Position numbers and translations under genes: made by a program
Shown: positions 10,149-58,731 of the stretch, in pieces
Layout of the letters: the number at the start of each line of letters is the position of its first letter
Position numbering within the stretch: the stretch's first letter is position 1
Notes under the pieces: generated by a model
Databases searched by the model: none
What the model saw: only the letters and a program-made list of their open reading frames with translations
Told to the model about the DNA's origin: nothing
Source: a virus
Virus record (IMG/VR): IMGVR_UViG_3300037875_000559
Location: 1 to 64,000 of that record
Strand: one strand, 5' to 3'
DNA length: 64,000 nt

Positions 10149-10871
10149 ATGCCTACTCAAGTTTACGTTGTAGCAAGAAGACCCGAAATACAAAACGGAT
10201 CTGTCATGGTTACAGATCTATTTCCTAATAAAAGTCAATCAAACCCAACAATTGACCCTGCTCCCCAAAGTCCTCTTTATATAAAGATTCCTTCAATGGG
10301 GAAAAATGTGAATCTGTCAACACCTGTTGCGGGGACTTTGAAAGTTCGATTTCCTTCAAGAGGTCTTGTTCCTTTCCTCCTGAAAAATATTCAGCATGGT
10401 GCAGGTACTGCTTTATCGTTAGCAGAAGCTATCGTAGTTGCGGATTCGATCCTGCTTGCAGTTCGTGGTGGTGATACACTCAATGAAAATGCGATCAATA
10501 AGTTTCTCGAAGATGCGACCAATAATGTTTTGACTGTTCTCGATGATGGTGCTGGTAATAGTACCTCTGTCGCTACCGTTGAAGATATATTAAGAGTTCT
10601 TTCAGGTGAGACATATGAAGTTTCAGCGAATACTACTATTCAAGTCAATAATGTATTCGTCCCTGACATTAACCATCTTTACGGATTTAAAAAAGATCAG
10701 AAACATTTAGTTCCTGGAGACGACTCTTGGGTTATTTCCTTCAGAGAAGGTGGACTCAAAGGTTTGACCTCTGTTCGTGATGCCGTTTACGGTGATCTTT
10801 TTGCAGGTGTGAAATCAACTTCTCCTCTTCTTACTGTCTATGTTTCAGATGGTTCTTTGTTTGCCCTTTAA
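10149..10871 (+). CDS. Putative virion protein, paralogue 1 of 3
   Basis: TDLFPNKSQ and C-terminal VYVSDGSL shared with the next two genes; SD AAGGAG. Confidence 0.7.
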   Translation: MPTQVYVVARRPEIQNGSVMVTDLFPNKSQSNPTIDPAPQSPLYIKIPSMGKNVNLSTPVAGTLKVRFPSRGLVPFLLKNIQHGAGTALSLAEAIVVADSILLAVRGGDTLNENAINKFLEDATNNVLTVLDDGAGNSTSVATVEDILRVLSGETYEVSANTTIQVNNVFVPDINHLYGFKKDQKHLVPGDDSWVISFREGGLKGLTSVRDAVYGDLFAGVKSTSPLLTVYVSDGSLFAL

Positions 10872-10888
10872 GAAATAGGAGATTTTCT

Positions 10889-11584
10889 ATGCCTTTTTTA
10901 TGTACTCCAAGAGTTTTAAACTCTACAGATGGTCGTGTTTCTGTTCAGATTACCGACTTATTTCCTAACAAATCTCAACACAGTGCTGTAATGACTCCTA
11001 ACTTCCAAGGGCCTGCTTATCTTCATGCTCATGGTAGGAAGTTGACAGAGACTGTTGCTTTGGATGGCGATTTCGCAACGACTACAGACTTAAGTGGGTT
11101 AGCAGTATATTTCTTGACTACTCTCATAGATAGTGATGGAGGTGGTGTTGCTCTTACTGCGGTTATGGCGAATGCTATTGCAAATGCTGTTATCGAAAGA
11201 ATGGAAAGTGGTCTCAGTCTTACAAAGGCTGATATGAATACCATCATTGTTGCAAAGACAGGTGGTGCTAACAATAATATGGATCTTGGAACTGCATCTG
11301 TTCTTGAGGTTCTTCAGATTGTTAGTGGCTATAAAACTTTCTCTGTACCCACAGGTCAAGATGTTGAAAACGGTGGTGCACAGGTAGCTTTAGACGCAAA
11401 TGTCCAAGCTGGCTTCTTCTCAACCCCGTATGACGCTAGTAAGTTGTTCTCTAAGTTCGACTCATCTTTCTTTGTTTCAGCTAGAAGTGGACAACTTAAG
11501 ATTGCCCAACTTCGTACTGACGCTAAAGGTAACCCAACGCCACTCGTTGTCTGTTATGCAGATGACGGTTCGCTCATCCAATAA
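10889..11584 (+). CDS. Putative virion protein, paralogue 2 of 3
   Basis: TDLFPNKSQ...CYADDGSL. Confidence 0.7.
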   Translation: MPFLCTPRVLNSTDGRVSVQITDLFPNKSQHSAVMTPNFQGPAYLHAHGRKLTETVALDGDFATTTDLSGLAVYFLTTLIDSDGGGVALTAVMANAIANAVIERMESGLSLTKADMNTIIVAKTGGANNNMDLGTASVLEVLQIVSGYKTFSVPTGQDVENGGAQVALDANVQAGFFSTPYDASKLFSKFDSSFFVSARSGQLKIAQLRTDAKGNPTPLVVCYADDGSLIQ

Positions 11585-11596
11585 GGAGACATAATC

Positions 11597-12244
11597 ATGG
11601 CAAGTCCTGTAATATGTATTAGAGATACTTCTATAAAAAATGGTCAGTTAATGGTTTCTGATCTTTTCCCCAACAAATCACAAGCAAGTGCCGTAATCGA
11701 CCCTGCTCCCCAAGGCCCTAGATACCTAAGAGTAGTTGAAGACGGAACTCCTGTTGTAGCCAACGATGTTGTTACTAGAAATGTTAGTGGTCTTACTGCA
11801 TATCTATTGACCACAATAGACGTTGAACAAGGCGGAGCTAATCCTACTCCTGCCCAAGCTGGTGAAATGTCAGCCACGTTATTAAAAAGAATGAGAAATG
11901 GGAATGAACTCACTCACGCCAAAATAAATGAAGCGATCATATCCGCAGGAGGCCAAGGAGGAGATTTTGATAATACAGGTCTTGGTTTAGGTGCTTCCAC
12001 TGCTACTGTTCAGAATATCTTGAGCATTCTTGGTGGTGCGAACTTTACTGTTTCAGCGGGTACGAGTGTAGATGGTTCTTATCTCTCTGTTGTAGATCAA
12101 GCTAGTCTTTTTGACTCTACGGTTTATGCTCCTGTCTTGGATGAAGACTCAAGCTTCCATATTTCTCGTGTAGAGGGCTTTCTTTCAAAAGCTAAGAGTG
12201 CTAACTTAGTTGTAGTTTATGCAGGGGACGGTAGCTTACTTTAA
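11597..12244 (+). CDS. Putative virion protein, paralogue 3 of 3
   Basis: SDLFPNKSQ...VYAGDGSL. Confidence 0.7.
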   Translation: MASPVICIRDTSIKNGQLMVSDLFPNKSQASAVIDPAPQGPRYLRVVEDGTPVVANDVVTRNVSGLTAYLLTTIDVEQGGANPTPAQAGEMSATLLKRMRNGNELTHAKINEAIISAGGQGGDFDNTGLGLGASTATVQNILSILGGANFTVSAGTSVDGSYLSVVDQASLFDSTVYAPVLDEDSSFHISRVEGFLSKAKSANLVVVYAGDGSLL

Positions 12245-12784: not shown

Positions 12785-13567
12785 ATGTTTCGTCTGATGT
12801 TTGTTTTATTTCTTTTAAGTCCATTTACTTCACATGCTCAAGTAAATATTGAAAACCAGAGATCTGGTAAAAAAGGGTTTCTTACGACTGTTACTGTTGG
12901 TTCTCAGTTGAAGAAAGGGAATAGTGATGTGTTTGATCTTAAGTCTTCATTAAGACTAGATCATAACACACAACACAACCATTTTTTCATCCTTACAGAC
13001 TATGAGTATGGACAGAGCAATGGTGAAGATTACAAGGGATCAAAATTCTATCATGTAAGAAATACATATAGGTTTCTTAGAGGTTTAGAAGGGGTGTTAC
13101 ATAAGTCAAATCTTGGAGTTGAAGGCTTTACTCAATATCAGAGTAATGTTTTCAGTGATTTAGAACTCCGTCAACTTCTAGGTTTTGGTCTTAGGTATGA
13201 AGAAGTAGATGACAGGGGGGTTAAGGTTTCAGCGAGAGATGTTTATGCTTTTGGTTTGGCCGGTATGTTAGAGTATGAGTCTCTGATTTCTGGCGAGGAG
13301 GGTGGCCTTTCTTTAAGGATGACAAGTTATATTTCTTTTAGAAAAACAACAGAAGGAAAAAACGCTTTCTTTTTGGTAGCCTATTTCCAACCCAAGGTAC
13401 TAAATTTAAAGGACTTCAGGGTCCTTTCAGAGTGTGGTGTGGAGTTTAAGTTATCTAGAAACGCTTTTATTCGCAATGCTTTTCAGTTTAACTATGACTC
13501 AAGACCTCCCACAGAAATAGAGAAATATGATTTATCAAACCTCGTTTCTTTGAAACTTGATTGGTAG
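12785..13567 (+). CDS. Outer-membrane beta-barrel protein, DUF481/YdiY-like
   Basis: Signal peptide (SHA/Q), amphipathic strands, GNSD...YDSRPP pattern, C-terminal beta-signal SLKLDW. Confidence 0.75.
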   Translation: MFRLMFVLFLLSPFTSHAQVNIENQRSGKKGFLTTVTVGSQLKKGNSDVFDLKSSLRLDHNTQHNHFFILTDYEYGQSNGEDYKGSKFYHVRNTYRFLRGLEGVLHKSNLGVEGFTQYQSNVFSDLELRQLLGFGLRYEEVDDRGVKVSARDVYAFGLAGMLEYESLISGEEGGLSLRMTSYISFRKTTEGKNAFFLVAYFQPKVLNLKDFRVLSECGVEFKLSRNAFIRNAFQFNYDSRPPTEIEKYDLSNLVSLKLDW

Positions 13568-13644
13568 CTTTTCAATGTTTTCTTTATTTCTTGCTGTATT
13601 GATATACAATGCGGAATCTTTTAATTGTGGGGTGTAATACGCTA

Positions 13645-14592
13645 ATGAGAAATATTATAAAAAAAGTAGCAAGTCATAAATATCAACGGACAAAGGTTGC
13701 AGAGAAGCATATCTATAAGACTTTTCAGAAAAAGGCTTGTGTGATAGCTCATGTGAACTCCGAAGGTTCTAGAGTTTTGTTTAAGAATAGAGATAGAAAC
13801 TATTCTCCAGAACTAAAAGTGTATCATACGCTTCGTAGGGGGGTAGAAATAGTCTACATGAAAGATGAGAATACAGGGTGGGTAGAAGGTGTAAATGAGT
13901 TTGGTATAGGTTTAGTGAACTCCGCCTTAATGGTTCTTTGGGATGAGAAAGAGGGTGGCAAAGGAAAAGGTAAAAAAAATGACTCTGCTACTTTGGGCAT
14001 TGTGGGGTCTAAAGACGCTAAAAGAATTCTTAGAGCATTGGAGTGTGAGACACTAGAAAAAGCGATGGAAGAACTTATTTCTTTTGAAGGAGGTATTCGA
14101 GGTCATACAATAGTTTCCGATGGTGTCCGAGCATTCTCTCTTGAACATACTGCAAAACACGCTCCCTATTACCAAGAAATATTAGAAGACGAAATCTTAG
14201 TTCGTAGTAATCATGGGTCGAAGTATCCTGATGCAGGTTATACAATAGGAGAGAACGCTCTTAGTAGTAAGCGTAGGATGCAAATCACTCTTGAGACACT
14301 TCCAAATCTTAAAATTGAAGAGATCGCACCCTCTCTTTATTCTCAGAAATATGTGGACGTGGGGAGTCCTTTCAATGTTGTCCGTAAAACGGACAATATG
14401 TACACTAGCTCTCAAATTGTATTAGATCTAAAGAGTAGGAAGATGGTGCTTTATCTGATCCCAGAAGAAGCGAGTTTTTTGGGTGTCTCTATAGATAAAG
14501 AAATAGAACAAGCCAAATGCTCTTTTGAAGTCAAAGAGTTCTCATTCTTTGATGAAGCAGGTGGTTTTGAAATCAAAAATGTCGTTTATTGA
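13645..14592 (+). CDS. Ntn-hydrolase (Cys nucleophile; C45/AAT or choloylglycine hydrolase-like) with basic propeptide
   Basis: CVIAH...LFKNRD...EGVNEFGI...VRSNH...SSKRR; Cys codon at 13738. Confidence 0.75.
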   Translation: MRNIIKKVASHKYQRTKVAEKHIYKTFQKKACVIAHVNSEGSRVLFKNRDRNYSPELKVYHTLRRGVEIVYMKDENTGWVEGVNEFGIGLVNSALMVLWDEKEGGKGKGKKNDSATLGIVGSKDAKRILRALECETLEKAMEELISFEGGIRGHTIVSDGVRAFSLEHTAKHAPYYQEILEDEILVRSNHGSKYPDAGYTIGENALSSKRRMQITLETLPNLKIEEIAPSLYSQKYVDVGSPFNVVRKTDNMYTSSQIVLDLKSRKMVLYLIPEEASFLGVSIDKEIEQAKCSFEVKEFSFFDEAGGFEIKNVVY

Positions 14593-22336: not shown

Positions 22337-22387
22337 ATGGATGTAATCCGAAAAATCGCAACATTACACATACAAGCGAAAAGCTAA
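22337..22387 (+). CDS. 16-aa leader-like micro-ORF MDVIRKIATLHIQAKS
   Basis: SD AGGAG 6 nt upstream; stop overlaps the next ATG (TAATG). Confidence 0.5.
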   Translation: MDVIRKIATLHIQAKS

Positions 22388-24153
22388 TGGGAAGTCTAGC
22401 TCAAAGGGTTGCCTACACCTATTTAAAAATAGCTGAAGAGAAATCTTTAAATCTTAAAATAGATGAGAAGTTTAAAACGTGGAAAGGGAAGAGTCCTGTA
22501 ACGGAGAATGAAGTAGGTTATTGGACTGTTAAAGGTTGGTTGCAAATAAAAAAGCCAAACAAAAACCAAACAGGGCTTAAAGAATATGCGGAGGAGGTGT
22601 TTGAGAAATTCCGAGAAGCAATAGAAGAGGATGAGGAGTCTGAAAGTGATTCCTCCTCACATGGATCTTTCAAAGGTGAGAAAAAAGCTCCTGGACTAGA
22701 TGGAAAAAGTCAGAAAATCTTAGAGGATGCACAAGAGGCTTTGGGGAAGGAGAACTTTGGTCTTCCAAAAAATGTTTTTGAGAAGAATAAATTTGTTCTC
22801 ACCTCCGCTTCAAAAGTGGAGCGTAAGGAAGTAGAGAAATTTGCCAAAGATATAAGGGATACCTTTAAGACTCCGGGATATAGTCGTGGGGCTATAAAAC
22901 AAAATCTTGATGTTTTGGGGAAGGATGAATGGCTCAAGCGTCATCTTTCAATGGTGGCAAAGCCTATCCAAGCGGCTATTGCTACAATGGGGCCTAAAGG
23001 GGATTTAAAGAAAGAAATGGGAGAGATTTTAGAAAGTAACCCTGAAGTAGCGGGAGCAGCTAAGAATTTAGCATCTAATTGGACACAAAGCACTGTTATA
23101 CCTATGGTGACAGGCACAACGAGTCTTGCAGGTTTAGCAGGGAAAGCGGTGACAGGGGCTATAGGAAAAACTGTTCTTGCTACTATACCTGTTCTTGGGT
23201 CGCCCATTACAGTGGCTACTATTGCTTCTGCTGTTGTAGGTACTATTGCGTATAAGACTCTTTTTCATGGGAGATCAAAAAAAGCCAAGGGAAAACTATT
23301 TTCTGTCAGCTCAGATTTACCTGATTCATATGATAGCTTAACTTCCGATGTATATGCAGGATATGCCACACCTGAGAGTGTAGAGGCAGAGTACAATAAA
23401 AAGCTTGATGAAGTGCTTGAAGATCAGACTTTAGGTGCAGAGGGGCTTCGGGAGAAGGTTTTAAAACTACATAAAGAGTTCGAGGACAATGCCCGACCTG
23501 CCATAGATAAGGCTTTATATCAGTTGGGTAAAACTGAAGGTTCAGGTATGTTTTCTTTCTTGAAGCGAGGCGTAGAAGAAAAGAAAGGTGCTCCTGTACT
23601 CATTAAGCTTCTTAAATTAAAAGATCAATTTGATGCACAAGATCAAATTGCAGATTATATAGAGAATAACTCAGAAGAAGTTGGAGAGCTAATTAAGAGA
23701 GTGCTTCAAGGAGATGAAGAAATACCTCCTGAAGTGATGGATGCACTTAAAGGTAAATGTGATACTGAGTCTTCTTCTGTAGAAGAAGCTCCTTCTAAGA
23801 AAGATAGAAAGGCTTCAAAAATGGATCGAGCTTTTGAAAAAAGCATAAAGGAATTTAAAGATCTTGAAAAGTTCTTACCCGTAAGAAAGATTATACCTCT
23901 AGTTGAAAACCAAATTAGGGATTTCATAAAGAGGTGTAACAGTTTAGATCCTATTGAAGATGTAGAAGTCTTTAAAAAAGCTGTTACAAGAGAGCATTAT
24001 CAGAAGAGAATAAACTTCTTGAAGAACTGGCTTTTAGAGCAAGGTTATTCTTATGATGTAAGAAGAAAGAAAGTCACTCCACTTTCAAGAGAAGAATCTA
24101 AAAGAAGGGTCTTAAGAGTAGCCTGTTTCAGGCTTTTCAGATCAAAATCGTGA
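22387..24153 (+). CDS. Large helical protein with leader (QRVAYTYLKIA) and central hydrophobic hairpin; candidate internal/ejection protein
   Basis: Ala/Gly-rich hydrophobic stretch around residues 240-290; leader-like motifs at both termini. Confidence 0.55.
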   Translation: MGSLAQRVAYTYLKIAEEKSLNLKIDEKFKTWKGKSPVTENEVGYWTVKGWLQIKKPNKNQTGLKEYAEEVFEKFREAIEEDEESESDSSSHGSFKGEKKAPGLDGKSQKILEDAQEALGKENFGLPKNVFEKNKFVLTSASKVERKEVEKFAKDIRDTFKTPGYSRGAIKQNLDVLGKDEWLKRHLSMVAKPIQAAIATMGPKGDLKKEMGEILESNPEVAGAAKNLASNWTQSTVIPMVTGTTSLAGLAGKAVTGAIGKTVLATIPVLGSPITVATIASAVVGTIAYKTLFHGRSKKAKGKLFSVSSDLPDSYDSLTSDVYAGYATPESVEAEYNKKLDEVLEDQTLGAEGLREKVLKLHKEFEDNARPAIDKALYQLGKTEGSGMFSFLKRGVEEKKGAPVLIKLLKLKDQFDAQDQIADYIENNSEEVGELIKRVLQGDEEIPPEVMDALKGKCDTESSSVEEAPSKKDRKASKMDRAFEKSIKEFKDLEKFLPVRKIIPLVENQIRDFIKRCNSLDPIEDVEVFKKAVTREHYQKRINFLKNWLLEQGYSYDVRRKKVTPLSREESKRRVLRVACFRLFRSKS

Positions 24154-46068: not shown

Positions 46069-48021
46069 ATGAGCGTAGACCCAGATAAACTCTCTTCTTT
46101 CTTTCGGGACTTATTTAAACGCCCGACATACCGTATGTCCTTATTTGGGCTTTATAATATTGACCGCAATGGAGACATTGAAGAAATAAAGAATGAAATT
46201 AATGGTTTCATAGACCCTGTTTCTTTGGCAAAAAGAGGATATGCGGGTTTTGTGTGGGATCTTAAAGATTTGGGAAAAAAAGAAATAGTTTTCAAGGGTC
46301 AATCTGCTAGTCCAGGAGACGAGTTGAGTTTGTCTCTCAAAAATAACCAAAAGGCGGGGCTTTTTGCCTCACTAGAAGACCTCAAAGCTATTTTCAACTT
46401 ATTGCGTGTTCGATTTCCTCAGAAATTGGACAATATGCTAAAAACAGCAAAAGCTAATGTGAATCCTATTAGGCAACGATCACAATTCACTTGTGTAACA
46501 ACTTCGACCTGCATGGCATTAAATGCTTTAGGTGTTCAATGTTCAGAAGATGATGTGAACAAGGTCATAGGGGCGAAGCCTATGCAGGGTGCCAGATGGG
46601 AAGAAGTGTTAGCTTGTGCTCAGTATTTTGGAGCAAGAGCAACTTTGACGACACCTGCTACTTTAACACAGGTGAAAGAGTGGACAGACGCAGGTAAACC
46701 CGTTCTTATCGCATGGAATCCTGAAGGTAGGGAGTGGAGTCATGCTAGTCTTATCTTTGATGTTACAGGTGAGAAGGGGAGCTATTTAGTACATATCGCA
46801 GACCCCAATATACCTAACCCTGATAAAACGGTAAGACTCGTAGAAGAAGATGAGTTCTATTCTAAATGGTTTGAAAAATGGCCTAACTATTTAGTGCGAA
46901 GACCTGCTCTGATGTTAGATAGAGAAATAACATCTGACGGAAGACAAGTGATGGCAAGCCAAGAAAAAGAAGCAAGTGCAAGAGACAAACCTCGAACTCT
47001 TAAAGGGGGTACGATTAAAGTACCCATTAGAGGGGGTCATGTCCTTATTTCTCAGTGGGTTTTAGATCATGTAATGCACCACAACGAAGTTGGCTCTGGT
47101 TCTGTGTTTTCAAGTGCTATGGATGAGCGAACTTTGATCAAGTTGGCTCAGAAAGCTCCGATCAAAGGCGACGGAGGGCTACACACTATGAAAGCCAATG
47201 GAGTTGGCTATGACTTAGTTATGTCTATAGAGGAAGCACTTTCTTTACCCGACGCAGTTCAGACTGAGGTAGTAAAGGAGGAGCGAGGTAGGAAAGTGAC
47301 TGTTCCTGCTGTTGAAACATCAGCACCTCTCAGATCATTTCAGACTGACGTAGTTACTTTGATTGTCAAACCTAGTAACCCGAAGTTTTTGCCCGATGAT
47401 GCTAAACGTATACCTGCTATTCTTAAAGATGTTCAAGATGGCAGGTCTTATTCAGTTCTCACTGCATTTCCCGGAGACCCCGATGTGCCTGTGGCTTCTC
47501 AGTGGGGGGGACGTTTTGCAGTTGTGATTCCAAACACTCAAGGTAGAATGGCTTCAGAGAAACCTAACTTCTTTTCTGTGGTAAAAGAAATGACTTCTAC
47601 AGTGAGGCATCTCGGCTATCTTATGACTTTTGATAGAGGTTCTTCAAAAATATGCACGAAAGAGCCTTATCTTGTGTTTAAAATCTCAGTTCCAGGTATC
47701 GGACACTATTCGTTAGACTTTGAAAGAAATAATGTTTCTCTCTATGAGGGAGGAGAGCTTCTAAAATCTTTCACAGATGTTAAAGACTTTCCTGATATTT
47801 TAAGATTTCTTCCTAAACAGCTTGCTGACATGAGTTTAAAACCTCAAGTAAAAGAAATGACAGTCGTAGATGGACACACAGTAGAAGAAATAACTGACCT
47901 ATTAAACTCAGACTTACCTAAGCGAGAGAAAGCACATGAGCTTCAAGATCTTATTCCGTCAACAAAAGACAGATTGAGTAAGACAGATCGAGCGTTAAGA
48001 GAGATGAACAAGATTCTTTAG
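46069..48021 (+). CDS. Multidomain protein containing a C39-like papain-fold peptidase
   Basis: RQRSQFTC...PVLIAW...SHASLI...HIADPN (Q-C-H-D); domains separated by LKTA, KEAS and RMAS. Confidence 0.7.
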   Translation: MSVDPDKLSSFFRDLFKRPTYRMSLFGLYNIDRNGDIEEIKNEINGFIDPVSLAKRGYAGFVWDLKDLGKKEIVFKGQSASPGDELSLSLKNNQKAGLFASLEDLKAIFNLLRVRFPQKLDNMLKTAKANVNPIRQRSQFTCVTTSTCMALNALGVQCSEDDVNKVIGAKPMQGARWEEVLACAQYFGARATLTTPATLTQVKEWTDAGKPVLIAWNPEGREWSHASLIFDVTGEKGSYLVHIADPNIPNPDKTVRLVEEDEFYSKWFEKWPNYLVRRPALMLDREITSDGRQVMASQEKEASARDKPRTLKGGTIKVPIRGGHVLISQWVLDHVMHHNEVGSGSVFSSAMDERTLIKLAQKAPIKGDGGLHTMKANGVGYDLVMSIEEALSLPDAVQTEVVKEERGRKVTVPAVETSAPLRSFQTDVVTLIVKPSNPKFLPDDAKRIPAILKDVQDGRSYSVLTAFPGDPDVPVASQWGGRFAVVIPNTQGRMASEKPNFFSVVKEMTSTVRHLGYLMTFDRGSSKICTKEPYLVFKISVPGIGHYSLDFERNNVSLYEGGELLKSFTDVKDFPDILRFLPKQLADMSLKPQVKEMTVVDGHTVEEITDLLNSDLPKREKAHELQDLIPSTKDRLSKTDRALREMNKIL

Positions 48022-48802: not shown

Positions 48803-49669
48803 ATGAATATGGACATTTTCGACAAGATTGCAGACGATTTCATCAGTAAAAAAGCTTCTCTCTCGCAACCTCTCAGATTAAGAAGAGACTATGGCGAGGA
48901 AGAAATCACTAAAGAAGCTCAGATGACTAAAGAGAAGTTTGCAGAGCGTATGGAGAATGATCCTGAGTTCGCTGAGAAATGGAACGCTAACAAGAAGACT
49001 AAGAAGCAGGCAGGCGAGGATGAGATTGACCGCATTTCTTCAGAGTTTATTTCTGAGCGTGTAGCTTACGCTAAAGGCTCTAAAGGTTCTAAGGACTTCA
49101 AGAAATATCATGGCTCGAACAAAGATTTTGCCGAAACTTGGGATGGTCAGATCGAAGCGAATAAAGATATGATTAAGTCAAAGGGCAAGAGCGACAGTAA
49201 AAAAATCGACCTCTCTAGTAAGCCAAAGGGTAAGTCTAAAGGTCCTGATATTTCCGCTATGGGTCGTTTAGCGACCGAGAGTGATATTGATCGTATTGTT
49301 TCAGAGTTTATTTCTGAGAGAGTCGCTTATGCTAAAGGCGAAGAAGGTCGCAAGCAACTTGAGGAGAAAAAGAAGAATGATCCTGAGTTCGCTGAGAAAT
49401 GGGAAGAGAATACCGTCCACTCTAAAGAGGAGATGGACGAGAAGATGGGTAAGTCAGCAGGCCATCATGATCACCACAGAGGTTCTTACATGAGTGTACA
49501 GCATCTAGCTGAGATGCAAGACCTTATCGCAGGTATTTCTGATATGGTACATCGTGATGAAGAGCTTCCTAATTGGGTGGATTCCAAAATCGCTCATATA
49601 CATCAAAATCTCTTAGATCTTGTTGGTTATTTCCAATATGGTAATGGCTACCACACACACGAGGATTGA
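48803..49669 (+). CDS. Charged repetitive protein with many [KR]xA sites; candidate scaffold/core polyprotein
   Basis: NDPEFAEKW x2 (29-bp identical DNA at 48954 and 49374), IDRIxSEFISERVAYAKG x2, terminal LPNWVDSKI domain; start 48803 or 48809. Confidence 0.6.
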   Translation: MNMDIFDKIADDFISKKASLSQPLRLRRDYGEEEITKEAQMTKEKFAERMENDPEFAEKWNANKKTKKQAGEDEIDRISSEFISERVAYAKGSKGSKDFKKYHGSNKDFAETWDGQIEANKDMIKSKGKSDSKKIDLSSKPKGKSKGPDISAMGRLATESDIDRIVSEFISERVAYAKGEEGRKQLEEKKKNDPEFAEKWEENTVHSKEEMDEKMGKSAGHHDHHRGSYMSVQHLAEMQDLIAGISDMVHRDEELPNWVDSKIAHIHQNLLDLVGYFQYGNGYHTHED

Positions 49670-51295: not shown

Positions 51296-51922
51296 CTATT
51301 GAAACCTATATATATTCATAGGTTTTTGCTCTATAAACCATTTGTAGTCTTCTTCTAATAACCCCTGAGTAGGTGGTTCTATATTAACGAGGTGTCCATA
51401 GAAAGGCATTTCTAGACTTTGGCAAACTTCCTTATAAGCATTGATGTTTTGCTGATTATCTTCCCAAAGATGTACACTTGTAACATTTTTGAGAGTATTT
51501 ATCTTTTTGAGCAATACGCTTACTTTATATTCGATAGTCTCTAAATGTCTTTCTCTTAAGAAGACTTCATCGAAATCTAGATTTCTTGCAGAGAGTATTT
51601 CTGCGATTCTATATCTCAGACCGCCATTATCTTCTCTTGCAGTACACAAGATAGCCCATGTGTTTTGTGAGCTAATGGATTTTTCAGCTTCTTTTACTGT
51701 TTGGGGGATCCAGTGTCTTGCAGATTGAGGGAAATCTGGGATAAAGGGTCTGCCTAAAGAAATAGCTTCTGACTCCCATTCTCCATATTTCTCATCCTCC
51801 CACCATATGGGTTTAGGAGGGCTCTTGAAAAGAGTCCAATCAAAATCATAGACGTGGAGACTCAGATTTTGAGAAGACTTCTTTAAAAACTTGGTAGCAA
51901 CTCTAGCTGTCTTATTTCTCAT
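51296..51922 (-). CDS. HAD phosphatase (Swiss-army-knife RNA-repair-like) with leader
   Basis: LHVYDFDWTLFKSP, LCTAR, YK, LWEDN; leader MRNKTARVATKFLKKSS. Confidence 0.8.
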   Translation of the reverse strand: MRNKTARVATKFLKKSSQNLSLHVYDFDWTLFKSPPKPIWWEDEKYGEWESEAISLGRPFIPDFPQSARHWIPQTVKEAEKSISSQNTWAILCTAREDNGGLRYRIAEILSARNLDFDEVFLRERHLETIEYKVSVLLKKINTLKNVTSVHLWEDNQQNINAYKEVCQSLEMPFYGHLVNIEPPTQGLLEEDYKWFIEQKPMNIYRFQ

Positions 51923-57375: not shown

Positions 57376-58731
57376 ATGCCTAAGTACAATTTAAATTTAG
57401 TACAACAAAGAGAGCAAGCCCGTCATGTTACTCAAGCTCTAAGTGCATATACTCGTTTAGCTAGAGAAGTTGTGAGTATGGGTGCTTCAGCGAAAGCAGA
57501 CTCTAATCCAAAAAGAAGATTTACACAGCTTGCTAGATCCTCTTCAAAGGTGTCTGCTTTTTTAGATGCTTTTATAGGGCAACCTACAGACTATTCTGTG
57601 GCATATAGTTTTCGTGAGAAATGTATATATGCTCTTAGAGATCAGCTCTTAGGTTTAAAAACACAGGCTGAAGCCGAAGAAATAATTACTAAGAATGCAG
57701 AGAAGTCCTACATACAAATGTCTGTCTCTTCTGCTCAGAAGAACTTGAGAGGTCTTTTACCACCTGAAATAAAGGCGTTCTTACCTGAGAACATTGTGAT
57801 TGAGACTGACGATGACGGGTCTATTACAAGTATGACGGATGTTTTTGGTAATGAGAAAGACGACCTTCAAACTAAAGTCAATTTAGTTCGTAAAATTGTG
57901 ACTGATTACAATAAGATTGTGAAACAGGTGAAGAAAGATCTAGCTTCAAAGAATGAGCGTACTAAGTTCAAGGCAATAGTGACTTCTATTCTTATGGAAA
58001 CAGGAATCCGACCTGGACGAGAAGGAAATGCGTCTAAAGTAGCAGGGGTGCTAATAGAGACATTCGGGGCTGTAACTTTAGCTCCCGAACACATTACTTT
58101 TGTAAAAAGTAACCTTGCTGAGTTGAAGTTCGTGGGGAAGGCAGGGACTGTGAATGTTGCGTCTCTTTCAGATAATGCTGTGATTAGAGAACTCAAAAAC
58201 TACGCATTAAAAGCTTTAAAAGGTAAATTGAAGCGTGTTTTTGTAGATAGAAATGGTATTTCACTATCTCATGTAGAGATAAACTACTATTTCCAAGAAT
58301 ACTTTGGGTCTATCCGACCTTCTGACTTGAGAAAATATAAAGCTACAGAGCAGATGTTTGAAGCATTGAAAGAAGAGCAACAGAAGTTACAGGCGAATAT
58401 CTTAAAATTCGTAGATGAAGAGGCTGAAGACTTAAAAGAGCGAGTTCTGTCCGAAATAGTGAACACTTTGAATCTTGCAGTCGAGCGAGCGAAATCGTCT
58501 CTGAGTCATTTATCAGGAGCAGATACCGTTGGGTATTATATTAATCCCGATGTCGTCTTGTCTTTTCTCTCACAAGGATTTGTTGACGCAGACTTGAAGA
58601 GTGCGATCATTAAGAATGACCGTACTCTTTCTTTTGATGTGGATGTTTTTGTACAGCATGCACTTTCTAAGAGAGGTTCTTCTTCTCACAATCTGCTTTC
58701 TATTTTCACAGAAATCGAAAATATGTTTTAA
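57376..58731 (+). CDS. Type IB DNA topoisomerase with N-terminal extension
   Basis: Catalytic pentad pattern GIRPG / FVGKAG / DLRKY / LSH / GYYINP. Confidence 0.85.
   Translation: MPKYNLNLVQQREQARHVTQALSAYTRLAREVVSMGASAKADSNPKRRFTQLARSSSKVSAFLDAFIGQPTDYSVAYSFREKCIYALRDQLLGLKTQAEAEEIITKNAEKSYIQMSVSSAQKNLRGLLPPEIKAFLPENIVIETDDDGSITSMTDVFGNEKDDLQTKVNLVRKIVTDYNKIVKQVKKDLASKNERTKFKAIVTSILMETGIRPGREGNASKVAGVLIETFGAVTLAPEHITFVKSNLAELKFVGKAGTVNVASLSDNAVIRELKNYALKALKGKLKRVFVDRNGISLSHVEINYYFQEYFGSIRPSDLRKYKATEQMFEALKEEQQKLQANILKFVDEEAEDLKERVLSEIVNTLNLAVERAKSSLSHLSGADTVGYYINPDVVLSFLSQGFVDADLKSAIIKNDRTLSFDVDVFVQHALSKRGSSSHNLLSIFTEIENMF

What the first reader, a model, noticed from the sequence alone, without database searches (positions are those of the whole stretch)
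13645..13752. Ntn-hydrolase catalytic Cys sits exactly after the KKA site: possible maturation-activated zymogen
Seen: ...KTFQKKA|CVIAH...KNRD...EGVNEFG...SNH. Known: Cys-type Ntn hydrolases need the nucleophile as a free N-terminal residue. Cleavage after K-x-A would expose Cys (codon 13738). This independently places the predicted cut site of the shared leader and suggests the enzyme is switched on only at head maturation. The substrate is unknown.
Basis: partly seen in the sequence, partly recalled or inferred. Interest (0 to 1): 0.8.

Follow-up and report, generated by a model that had tools for sequence, protein, structure and literature searches.

The report
Phage Ntn-hydrolase proenzyme behind cleavable leader
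A huge uncultured phage encodes an amide-cleaving enzyme whose catalytic cysteine is masked by a short leader ending in Lys-Lys-Ala, and comparison with hundreds of relatives suggests, but does not prove, that the phage's own head-maturation protease removes the leader and so switches the enzyme on.

Summary
ORF 13609/13645-14592 encodes a phage-specific relative of the Cys-Ntn hydrolase family C45/AAT, and its invariant Cys (codon 13738) follows K-K-A directly.

Across 161 + 133 distinct relatives, the three residues before this Cys are almost always one of two types, or the protein starts Met-Cys:
- class A: [KR]-x-[ASG]
- class B: [LIVM]-x-E

Class B and Met-Cys genomes carry a T4 gp21-type protease, which cuts after Glu, in 5 of 6 tested. 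Class A genomes carry it in 0 of 8. Five of five near-complete class A genomes have a different head protease, and the acidic scaffold next to it is rich in [KR]-x-A-S.

The leader's R-V-A element recurs at termini and junctions of giant phage polyproteins, where Ntn self-cleavage cannot act.

Activation in trans is therefore plausible (about 0.55). Self-processing, the norm for Ntn enzymes, is not excluded. The A/B split is a single evolutionary change. The contig is only 27% of the genome and holds no head protease. The substrate is unknown.

The scan made the same reading earlier on a relative (e1-6066585).

The parts
13609..14592 (+). ORF of the Ntn-hydrolase proenzyme (327 aa from ATG 13609; 315 aa from the likelier start ATG 13645; stop included)
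   Evidence: 120 homologues were found, and 653 clusters at E<=1e-3 in the profile search.
13645..13737 (+). 31-residue basic leader/propeptide, less conserved than the enzyme (45-58% identity against 77-86% in three orthologues)
13663..13671 (+). First K-V-A element of the leader, a [KR]-x-A candidate site; conserved as [KR]-[VI]-A in 4 of 4 orthologues
13693..13701 (+). Second K-V-A element of the leader, a [KR]-x-A candidate site; conserved in 4 of 4 orthologues
13729..13737 (+). K-K-A, positions P3-P1 of the proposed cut
   Evidence: [KR]-x-[ASG] stands before the Cys in 89 of 161 and 75 of 133 relatives.
13738..13740 (+). Cys codon TGT, the proposed N-terminal nucleophile of the mature enzyme
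   Evidence: Invariant in A1. It is the first residue after Met in 9 of 161 and 3 of 133 relatives.
13738..14589 (+). Mature catalytic domain (284 aa)
   Evidence: Pfam AAT matches in homologues begin about 9-12 residues after the Cys (about 5 residues after it once extrapolated to profile position 1) and span about 225 residues.
13783..13803 (+). K-N-R-D-R-N-Y motif, 15-21 residues after the Cys; K59, R61, D62, R63 and Y65 are invariant
   Evidence: The spacing resembles Cys143/Arg159/Asp162 of acid ceramidase (PMC5915598).
14209..14217 (+). Invariant N-H-G (N201, H202, G203); the Asn is a candidate oxyanion-hole residue
   Evidence: The assigned role is inferred, not tested.
22387..22434 (+). 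Related R-V-A leader at the N-terminus of an unrelated 588-aa protein, ending K-I-A
51875..51922 (-). Related R-V-A leader at the N-terminus of a 208-aa protein, ending K-K-S
48803..48856 (+). Related K-I-A leader ending K-K-A-S. This N-terminus matches residues 4-41 of the capsid-like protein of related genome G011.
   Evidence: tblastn E 8e-4.
46423..46989 (+). C39-like cysteine peptidase module inside the 650-aa ORF 46069-48021. It is the alternative candidate for the leader-cutting enzyme.
   Evidence: Pfam Peptidase_C39_2 scores 25.9 bits against a cut-off of 24. The module is 65-83% identical in 5 of 5 class A genomes and absent from 5 of 5 class B or Met-Cys genomes. A [KR]-x-A stands at its N-boundary in 6 of 6 sequences.

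Best explanation
The gene encodes a phage-specific Cys-Ntn amide hydrolase related to peptidase family C45 (Pfam AAT). It is made as an inactive proenzyme because 31 residues precede the nucleophile Cys.

The leader belongs to a leader and junction system used by this clade of huge phages. That system consists of R-V-A-type elements followed by a [KR]-x-[AS] site. I propose that the clade's head-maturation protease cuts after K-K-A inside the prohead. That cut would free Cys as residue 1 and arm the enzyme only once it is packaged, so that it acts in the next host after ejection.

What is shown:
- family membership of the relatives
- invariance of the Cys
- the two conserved P3-P1 types and their co-occurrence with two protease types
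- enrichment of [KR]-x-A-S in scaffolds
- recurrence of the leader element at junctions that have no Ntn domain

What is inferred: packaging, cleavage in trans, timing of activation, and the substrate. For the substrate I can only guess a host amide metabolite such as a gamma-glutamyl compound, because some relatives are fused to ChaC/GGACT domains.
For: **Ntn family**
- PF03417 is matched by 32 of 66 relatives (best E 9.1e-10), with 9 of the 10 relatives rescanned above the 23.2-bit cut-off.
- The Cys, R61, D62 and N201 are invariant.
- Met-Cys starts occur in 9 of 161 and 3 of 133 relatives and arise up to 5 times in the tree.

**P3-P1 types**
- 161 of 161 distinct domains are [KR]-x-[ASG], [LIVM]-x-E or Met-Cys.
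- 121 of 133 further representatives are the same.

**Protease match**
- The T4 gp21-type family PF03420 is present in 4 of 5 class B genomes and 1 of 1 Met-Cys genome, and in 0 of 8 class A genomes.
- T4-type proteases cut after Glu. T4 Alt loses only six residues at I-T-E (PMC5694885, passages read).
- Five of five near-complete class A genomes have another head protease, matched by phrog_18299 at E 3.6e-15. It is absent from 5 of 5 class B or Met-Cys genomes.
- The acidic scaffold next to this protease has 4-9 [KR]-x-A-[SC] sites against a shuffle mean of 0.3-0.7. Shuffles reach the observed count in 7 of 5000 for one genome and 0 of 5000 for the other four.
- Each of these proteases carries a conserved K-[AS]-A-S just after its catalytic part.

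**Leader is a general junction**
- The R-V-A element gives 40 hits in 54 polyproteins of at least 700 aa, against a shuffle mean of 1.43 and a maximum of 6 in 300 shuffles. Only 5 of the 40 lie just before an Ntn Cys.
- It heads other proteins in the window, with 6 of 12 motif hits in the first 30 residues against 1.2 expected.
- It also heads proteins in a 62% GC relative.
- The Ntn domain lies deep inside polyproteins of up to 2792 aa.
Against: - Ntn hydrolases normally cut themselves. IAT does so at Gly102-Cys103, and acid ceramidase at Cys143. Nothing here excludes this.
- Class A is a single clade in the enzyme tree (one change, support 83). The agreement between motif and protease therefore counts as about one independent event.
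- Most class A relatives carry only a five-residue M-x-K-x-[AS] propeptide, too short to act as a targeting signal.
- No head protease, scaffold or capsid gene lies on this contig.
- In ±10 kb around other class A copies, the leader motif is not enriched at N-termini (1 observed against 1.2 expected).
- An HMM built from homologues' leaders did not separate real ORFs from reversed ones (best E 0.78 against 1.2).
- The R-V-A pattern used was written after I had seen examples.
- No structure model could be made, and no solved structure matched by sequence.
Confidence: 0.55

Rival explanations
1. Classical self-activation. The enzyme removes its own propeptide by an N-to-S acyl shift at Ala-Cys, as other Ntn hydrolases do. 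The leader serves only for targeting, or for nothing, and the P3-P1 residues are conserved for reasons internal to each enzyme clade.
For: Self-processing is the rule for the closest family and for the superfamily (PMC2692852 and PMC5915598). The class A and class B split follows the enzyme tree with a single change. Short five-residue propeptides dominate class A.
Against: - Two chemically opposite and near-invariant P3-P1 types occur within one family that shares the same catalytic invariants.
- Each type equals the site type of the co-resident head protease.
- Met-Cys forms show that the propeptide is not needed for folding.
- The same junction element flanks domains that have no nucleophile.
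Confidence: 0.3
2. The cut is made in trans by the conserved C39-like cysteine peptidase module (window 46423-46989), not by the head protease. It would act like a bacteriocin leader peptidase that recognises a helical leader and cuts after a small residue.
For: - The module passes Pfam Peptidase_C39_2 (25.9 bits against a cut-off of 24).
- It is the most conserved protein segment I saw, at 65-83% identity in 5 of 5 class A genomes, and it is absent from 5 of 5 class B or Met-Cys genomes.
- Its N-boundary carries [KR]-x-A in 6 of 6 sequences.
- It lies on this contig.
Against: - The same presence and absence pattern holds for the phrog_18299-type head protease.
- The [KR]-x-A-S enrichment is in the scaffold that sits beside that protease.
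- The double-glycine specificity of C39 enzymes (recalled, not tested) is not what is seen here.
Confidence: 0.12
3. The Cys is not an N-terminal nucleophile. The protein would work with its leader in place, for instance through a Cys-His pair, or it would not be an enzyme at all.
For: The window protein itself matches no Pfam, PHROG, NCBIfam or PDB entry. No fold model was obtained. H202 is invariant.
Against: - 32 of 66 relatives pass PF03417.
- Recurrent Met-Cys starts fall at exactly this Cys.
- A cleavage-type motif always abuts it, even inside 2000-residue polyproteins.
Confidence: 0.03

Closest known systems
Isopenicillin-N N-acyltransferase and relatives (MEROPS C45, Pfam AAT PF03417)
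   Same: It is a Cys-Ntn amide hydrolase or acyltransferase family made as a proenzyme, with the nucleophile Cys exposed by cleavage of the preceding bond. Half of the phage relatives pass the Pfam model.
   Different: IAT cuts itself at Gly-Cys and keeps the N-terminal piece as a subunit (PMC2692852). The phage clade has [KR]-x-[AS] or [LIVM]-x-E before the Cys and often only a short leader. It is virus-specific, with 1 hit in 185,579 species genomes, on a MAG contig. The window protein does not itself reach the Pfam threshold.
T4 internal proteins IPI-III and Alt: capsid-targeting sequence removed by prohead protease gp21
   Same: Unrelated proteins carry a short N-terminal leader that ends in the head protease's site. 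Alt loses only six residues at I-T-E (PMC5694885). Class B relatives of this enzyme carry exactly that site type and sit in genomes with a gp21-type protease.
   Different: In T4 the cut is not known to create a catalytic residue. Here the first residue after the cut would be the nucleophile. The window's clade uses a different site, [KR]-x-[AS], and a different protease family. Packaging is not shown here.
Acid ceramidase / NAAA and penicillin V acylase / bile salt hydrolase (Cys-Ntn hydrolases)
   Same: A nucleophile Cys is followed 16-19 residues later by Arg and Asp, and later by an Asn (aCDase Cys143, Arg159, Asp162, Asn320). Here the equivalents are C44, R61, D62 and N201. Met-Cys starts, as in bile salt hydrolase (recalled), occur in 12 relatives.
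   Different: There is no detectable sequence match to these families apart from one weak CBAH hit (E 0.041) and one weak Peptidase_C69 hit (E 0.0069). Activation in those enzymes is by self-cleavage or by Met removal.
Phage polyvalent proteins (Iyer et al. 2017, PMC5512222)
   Same: The Ntn domain occurs inside polyproteins of 700-2800 residues and is fused to 2H, ART-PolyVal-like, cytidylyltransferase-like and ChaC/GGACT modules. These are thought to be packed in heads and injected.
   Different: A search of the paper's text found no mention of Ntn or ChaC domains and gave no passage on a protease-site junction that doubles as the activating cut.

Membership tests
Peptidase C45 / Pfam AAT (PF03417), Ntn-hydrolase superfamily | The protein itself matches the family model above the curated threshold | tested here: not met
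   The window protein gives 0 Pfam families at E<=1, and nothing in NCBIfam, PHROGs or PDB sequences.
Peptidase C45 / Pfam AAT (PF03417), Ntn-hydrolase superfamily | Clear homologues match the family model above the curated threshold | tested here: met
   32 of 66 aligned relatives match at E<=0.01 (28-83% identical to the window protein across A1), with a best E of 9.1e-10. Examples score 36.1, 37.0 and 33.3 bits against a cut-off of 23.2.
Peptidase C45 / Pfam AAT (PF03417), Ntn-hydrolase superfamily | A conserved nucleophile Cys that is residue 1 of the mature chain | tested here: met
   The Cys is invariant in A1. Met-Cys starts occur in 9 of 161 and 3 of 133 relatives, and every other relative has a conserved site motif abutting the Cys. 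The mature N-terminus itself is inferred.
Peptidase C45 / Pfam AAT (PF03417), Ntn-hydrolase superfamily | Alpha-beta-beta-alpha sandwich fold with the nucleophile at the start of a central strand | not testable with these tools
The ESM Atlas holds no model for the window protein or for P0062.
Peptidase C45 / Pfam AAT (PF03417), Ntn-hydrolase superfamily | Autocatalytic cleavage of the bond before the nucleophile | not testable with these tools
   This needs expression of wild type and a Cys-to-Ala mutant. The comparative data lean against it being the only route.
T4-type capsid-targeted cargo processed by the prohead protease | The same leader on unrelated proteins of one phage | tested here: met
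   In this genome, 6 of 12 R-V-A-type hits lie in the first 30 residues against 1.2 expected, in 4-5 distinct proteins. In genome G007, 5 of 17 hits do so against 1.9 expected. The element is 28-fold over shuffles in polyproteins.
T4-type capsid-targeted cargo processed by the prohead protease | The leader ends in the recognition site of the phage's own head protease | tested here: inconclusive
   For class B the site type equals the published T4-type site. For class A the site is inferred from scaffold enrichment in 5 of 5 related genomes. No cleavage data exist.
T4-type capsid-targeted cargo processed by the prohead protease | A head protease encoded by the same genome | tested here: inconclusive
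   None was found on this 84-kb contig, but the contig is only 27% complete. The protease is present in 5 of 5 near-complete class A genomes.
T4-type capsid-targeted cargo processed by the prohead protease | The protein is present in virions in processed form | not testable with these tools
   The only cultured phages with a homologue are Chryseobacterium phages MA9V-1 and MA9V-2. The MA9V-1 paper reports SDS-PAGE only, with no mass spectrometry (passages read).
C39 double-glycine leader peptidase systems | Gly-Gly (or Gly-Ala / Gly-Ser) at P2-P1 of the leader | tested here: not met
   P2 is E, K, Q or R and P3 is K or R in class A. The definition of the C39 site is recalled, not taken from a call.

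The most novel reading that the evidence does not exclude
A whole family of phage Ntn hydrolases has handed the step that creates its catalytic N-terminus to the capsid-maturation protease.

The three residues before the nucleophile would have been rewritten to match whichever protease the phage lineage uses: [LIVM]-x-E for T4-type proteases, and [KR]-x-[AS] for a so far undescribed head protease of a huge-phage clade. The enzyme would then be armed only inside the head and would fire in the next host.

If so, the Cys also fixes the exact scissile bond of that undescribed protease, which would cut after the third residue of [KR]-x-[AS], for example K-K-A before Ser or Cys.
Probability: 0.5. 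Interest if true: 0.75.

Novelty: new variant of a known kind. Interest (0 to 1): 0.62.

Why it matters
**For Ntn enzymology.** Ntn hydrolases are textbook self-activating enzymes. A family whose nucleophile is unmasked by another protease would be a new way of controlling the class.

**For phage biology.** It would be a clear case in which head maturation acts as an enzymatic switch for injected cargo, and not merely as trimming.

**For an uncultured clade.** The Cys gives a residue-exact prediction of the cleavage site of an uncharacterised head protease in a clade of uncultured huge phages. That prediction can be tested with two or three recombinant proteins.

**For annotation.** The [KR]-x-[AS] and R-V-A junction grammar would help to cut the giant polyproteins of these phages into their functional modules.

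Tried and rejected
**Fold evidence**
- The ESM Atlas has no model for the window protein or for P0062.
- PDB sequence searches with the protein, with profile A1 and with two homologues gave only chance hits at E of about 1.

**Leader tests that failed or were weak**
- An HMM of homologues' leaders, searched against all stop-to-stop ORFs of the genome, placed three real N-termini on top (E 0.78-4.4). Reversed ORFs scored as well (E 1.2), so I do not count it as evidence.
- The class B leader was not found on neighbouring ORFs within ±10 kb.
- The R-V-A leader was not enriched at N-termini around other class A copies.

**ClpP as the class A head protease: rejected**
- ClpP is present in only 4 of 9 class A records and in 1 of 4 class B records.
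- In G008 it lies among genes on the opposite strand, not in a head module.
- HK97-type S78 was absent from 5 of 5 records tested.

**Other dead ends**
- PHROG and Pfam scans of 30 window and contig ORFs named only a tail sheath, primase, topoisomerase IB, baseplate J, sheath initiator, DUF2325 and the C39-like module. They named no head gene.
- Cellular relatives were sought in 185,579 species genomes. One MAG contig was found.
- The genome search 'relatives' is not available for a virus record, so I could not build a cellular C45 alignment for a profile-profile test of the Cys column.
- Literature searches linking Ntn or C45 enzymes to phage head proteases found nothing. Subscription journals and supplementary files were not searchable.
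Full report
**What is there.** The + strand ORF 13609..14592 encodes 327 residues. The sequence runs ...Q-K-K-A-C-V-I-A-H..., with the Cys codon at 13738-13740. It is followed by K-N-R-D-R-N-Y, E-G-V-N-E-F-G and S-N-H-G, as reported. The three closest orthologues (74-84% identical) have leaders of 32-33 residues that align with the 31 residues from ATG 13645, so that start is the likelier one. The window is the first 64 kb of an 84,198-base IMG/VR virus record that CheckV rates 27% complete. It is therefore a fragment of a huge phage with a contractile tail: it has a sheath, baseplate J and a sheath initiator.

**Is it an Ntn hydrolase?**
- The window protein itself matches nothing in Pfam, PHROGs, NCBIfam or PDB sequences.
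- It has 120 homologues in the word-indexed search. A profile of 66 of them finds 653 clusters at E<=1e-3 among 1.84 billion representatives.
- 32 of those 66 pass Pfam AAT (PF03417, MEROPS C45) at E<=0.01. One also hits Peptidase_C69 weakly and one hits CBAH weakly.
- The AAT matches begin about 9-12 residues after the conserved Cys, which puts profile position 1 about 5 residues after it.
- In the alignment the Cys is invariant, as are K59, R61, D62, R63, Y65, N201, H202, G203 and R223.
- The spacing of Cys, then Arg and Asp 17-18 residues later, then a later Asn, resembles Cys143/Arg159/Asp162/Asn320 of acid ceramidase (PMC5915598, passages read).
9 of 161 and 3 of 133 do.

I rate 'Cys-Ntn hydrolase of the C45 kind' at about 0.85. 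The family is essentially viral. At least 550 loci encode it in IMG/VR. Two cultured phages have it. One MAG contig has it among 185,579 species genomes.

**What stands before the Cys.** I pooled the proteins and the ORFs of 80 viral loci, which gave 161 distinct domains. Of these:
- 85 have [KR]-x-[AS] and 4 have [KR]-x-G before the Cys (class A);
- 63 have [LIVM]-x-E (class B);
- 9 start Met-Cys;
- none is of another kind.

Among the 133 new representatives of the profile search, 75 are class A, 43 are class B, 3 start Met-Cys, 3 are other, and in 9 my pattern found no Cys. Class A most often carries a bare five-residue M-x-K-x-[AS] propeptide, with Met at P5 in 59 of 85. In a FastTree tree of the 161 domains, class A is one side of a single branch (support 83), and Met-Cys forms arise up to five times inside class B. 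The class A to class B switch is therefore a single event.

**Do the two motif types track the phage's protease?**

| Genome set | T4 gp21-type protease (PF03420) | phrog_18299-type head protease | C39-like module |
|---|---|---|---|
| Class B | 4 of 5 (G001, G002, G004, MA9V-1; not G003, 71% complete) | 0 of 4 | 0 of 4 |
| Met-Cys (G009) | 1 of 1 | 0 of 1 | 0 of 1 |
| Class A | 0 of 8 (three of them at least 95% complete) | 5 of 5 near-complete; not on the window's contig | 5 of 5, and on the window |

- T4-type and phiKZ-type head proteases cut after Glu. T4 Alt is cut at I-T-E after only six residues (PMC5694885, passages read). Class B propeptides therefore look like ordinary substrates of their phages' protease.
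- In class A genome G011 I found a head module made of four genes: a 480-aa protein matching phrog_18299 'head maturation protease' (E 3.6e-15), an acidic scaffold, a protein of about 200 aa, and a 292-aa capsid-like protein with weak Phage_capsid hits.
- That protease is present at 42-77% identity in the four other near-complete class A genomes.
- The scaffolds carry 4-9 [KR]-x-A-[SC] motifs against a shuffle mean of 0.3-0.7. Shuffles reach the observed number in 7 of 5000 for one genome and 0 of 5000 for four. Three of these motifs are conserved just before the scaffold's C-terminal tail.
- All five proteases share K-[AS]-A-S just after the catalytic part. This recalls the C-terminal self-cut of the phiKZ and SPN3US head proteases (gp175, gp245) reported in PMC5694885.
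- In K-K-A-C of the hydrolase, the Cys sits where the scaffold sites have Ser.

**Is the propeptide related to other leaders?**
- In this genome the pattern [RK]-[VI]-A-x-x-[FYHK] gives 12 hits in 92 ORFs. Six lie in the first 30 residues against 1.2 expected, in the hydrolase, a 588-aa protein, a 294-aa protein and a 208-aa protein. Each is followed by K-x-[AS].
- Many class A relatives have R-V-A-x-x-[YFH]-[LIVM] followed by [KR]-x-[AS] and then Cys, at N-termini and inside polyproteins.
- A 62% GC relative, G007, has two further proteins that start in the same way.
- In 54 polyproteins of at least 700 residues the element occurs 40 times, against a shuffle mean of 1.43 and a maximum of 6 in 300 shuffles. 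Five hits lie just before the Ntn Cys, 6 at protein N-termini, 7 at C-termini, 17 at other internal places, and 5 within or just after the Ntn domain. I wrote this pattern after seeing examples, so the fold-enrichment is generous.
- R-V-A-S is itself a [KR]-x-A-S site. The leader therefore looks like a string of sites, as described for propeptides of giant phages (PMC5694885).
- These junctions lie next to domains without a nucleophile, so something other than Ntn self-cleavage must act on them if they are cut at all.
- The N-terminus of window ORF 48803 matches residues 4-41 of the G011 capsid-like protein. This suggests that the leader imitates the capsid protein's N-terminal arm, but that is an inference.

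**Results against the trans-cleavage reading.**
- Self-processing is the norm and cannot be excluded.
- The motif-protease link is about one evolutionary event.
- Five-residue propeptides cannot target anything.
- A leader HMM did not beat reversed ORFs.
- Neighbours of other class A and class B copies show no shared leader within ±10 kb.
- The three sites in this one leader are not significant alone.
- The contig holds no head gene.
- No proteomic data exist. The MA9V-1 paper has SDS-PAGE only.

**A second candidate protease.** The C39-like module at 46423-46989 has the same presence and absence pattern and very high conservation: 65-83% identity in 5 of 5 class A genomes and 0 of 5 others.

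**Function.** The substrate is unknown. Relatives are fused to GGACT/ChaC (P0059), to a 2H phosphoesterase and a ferritin-like domain (P0067), to an ART-PolyVal-like domain scoring below its cut-off (P0051), and to a cytidylyltransferase-like domain (P0107). Many sit in polyproteins of up to 2792 residues. This is the company kept by injected 'polyvalent' cargo (PMC5512222, passages read, which do not mention Ntn or ChaC). A gamma-glutamyl or other small amide substrate in the host cytoplasm is my guess, at about 0.2.

**Comparison and verdict.** The protein works like a C45 Ntn proenzyme combined with a T4-style leader-tagged head cargo. Membership in C45 is met at family level but not by the window protein's own score, and the fold is untested. 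Membership in the 'prohead-protease-processed cargo' class is supported only by comparative evidence. I found no paper joining the two (searches; subscription journals and supplements not covered). The scan reached the same reading on a relative earlier (e1-6066585), and I do not count that as independent evidence.

- the test of protease family against motif class;
- the head module of the class A clade, with its site-rich scaffold;
- the single-origin caveat;
- the junction element in polyproteins;
- the C39-like rival.

Odds: trans-activation by the head protease 0.55, self-processing alone 0.30, the C39-like module 0.12.

Noticed in passing
window 46069-48021 (module 46423-46989): A C39-like cysteine peptidase module sits inside a 650-aa multi-module ORF. 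It is 65-83% identical in five other huge-phage genomes, including one with 62% GC. There it occurs in open frames of 194-980 aa, always starting after [KR]-x-A-[KR]-A and ending ...G-R-Q-x-M-A-S. One uncultured 485-kb phage record, LR745208.1, also has it.
   Followed up: partly
L115:912-5674 (G011) and the matching regions of G005-G008: A conserved head module of this huge-phage clade. It contains a 480-520 aa protease with a Cys-rich insert, an acidic scaffold with [KR]-x-A-S repeats and a weak EF-hand-like hit, a protein of about 200 aa, and a very conserved 290-292 aa capsid-like protein, which is unusually small for genomes of 275-375 kb.
   Followed up: partly
window 48803-49669: The N-terminus of this repetitive, charged 294-aa ORF matches residues 4-41 of the capsid-like protein of G011 (tblastn E 8e-4). 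It may be a decoy or a scaffold-like protein that carries the capsid protein's N-terminal arm.
   Followed up: partly
window 12785-13567: The gene just upstream of the hydrolase encodes a 260-aa protein with a signal peptide that looks like a beta-barrel outer-membrane protein. Smaller proteins that start in a similar way lie a few genes after the capsid gene in G005, G006 and G008.
   Followed up: no
window 10149-12244: Three tandem paralogues (240, 231 and 215 aa) share an N-terminal D-L-F-P-N-K-S-Q block. None has a PHROG match.
   Followed up: no
window 57376-58731: A 451-aa protein matches the catalytic core of eukaryotic-type topoisomerase IB (Pfam Topoisom_I, E 1.4e-14).
   Followed up: no
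P0059, P0067, P0051, P0107 and the polyproteins: The Ntn domain is fused to ChaC/GGACT, 2H, ART-like and cytidylyltransferase-like modules. It occurs at internal positions, for example residues 1553-1837 of 1879 and 1223-1553 of 2792, in giant phage proteins.
   Followed up: partly
L027/L028 (IMG/VR loci): One open frame carries an R-V-A leader, an acetyltransferase-like domain, a second R-V-A element ending K-H-A, and then the Ntn Cys. The leader therefore serves both as an N-terminal tag and as an internal joint.
   Followed up: no
W01 (Chryseobacterium phage MA9V-1) 126606-126944: The gp21-type protease domain of this cultured jumbo phage lies in a 1349-aa open frame, annotated as a 4,044-nt 'prohead core protein serine protease'. 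That is far longer than T4 gp21.
   Followed up: no
G002:C1:57578-58084: A ClpP-like gene in a T4-like class B phage contains one in-frame TAA.
   Followed up: no
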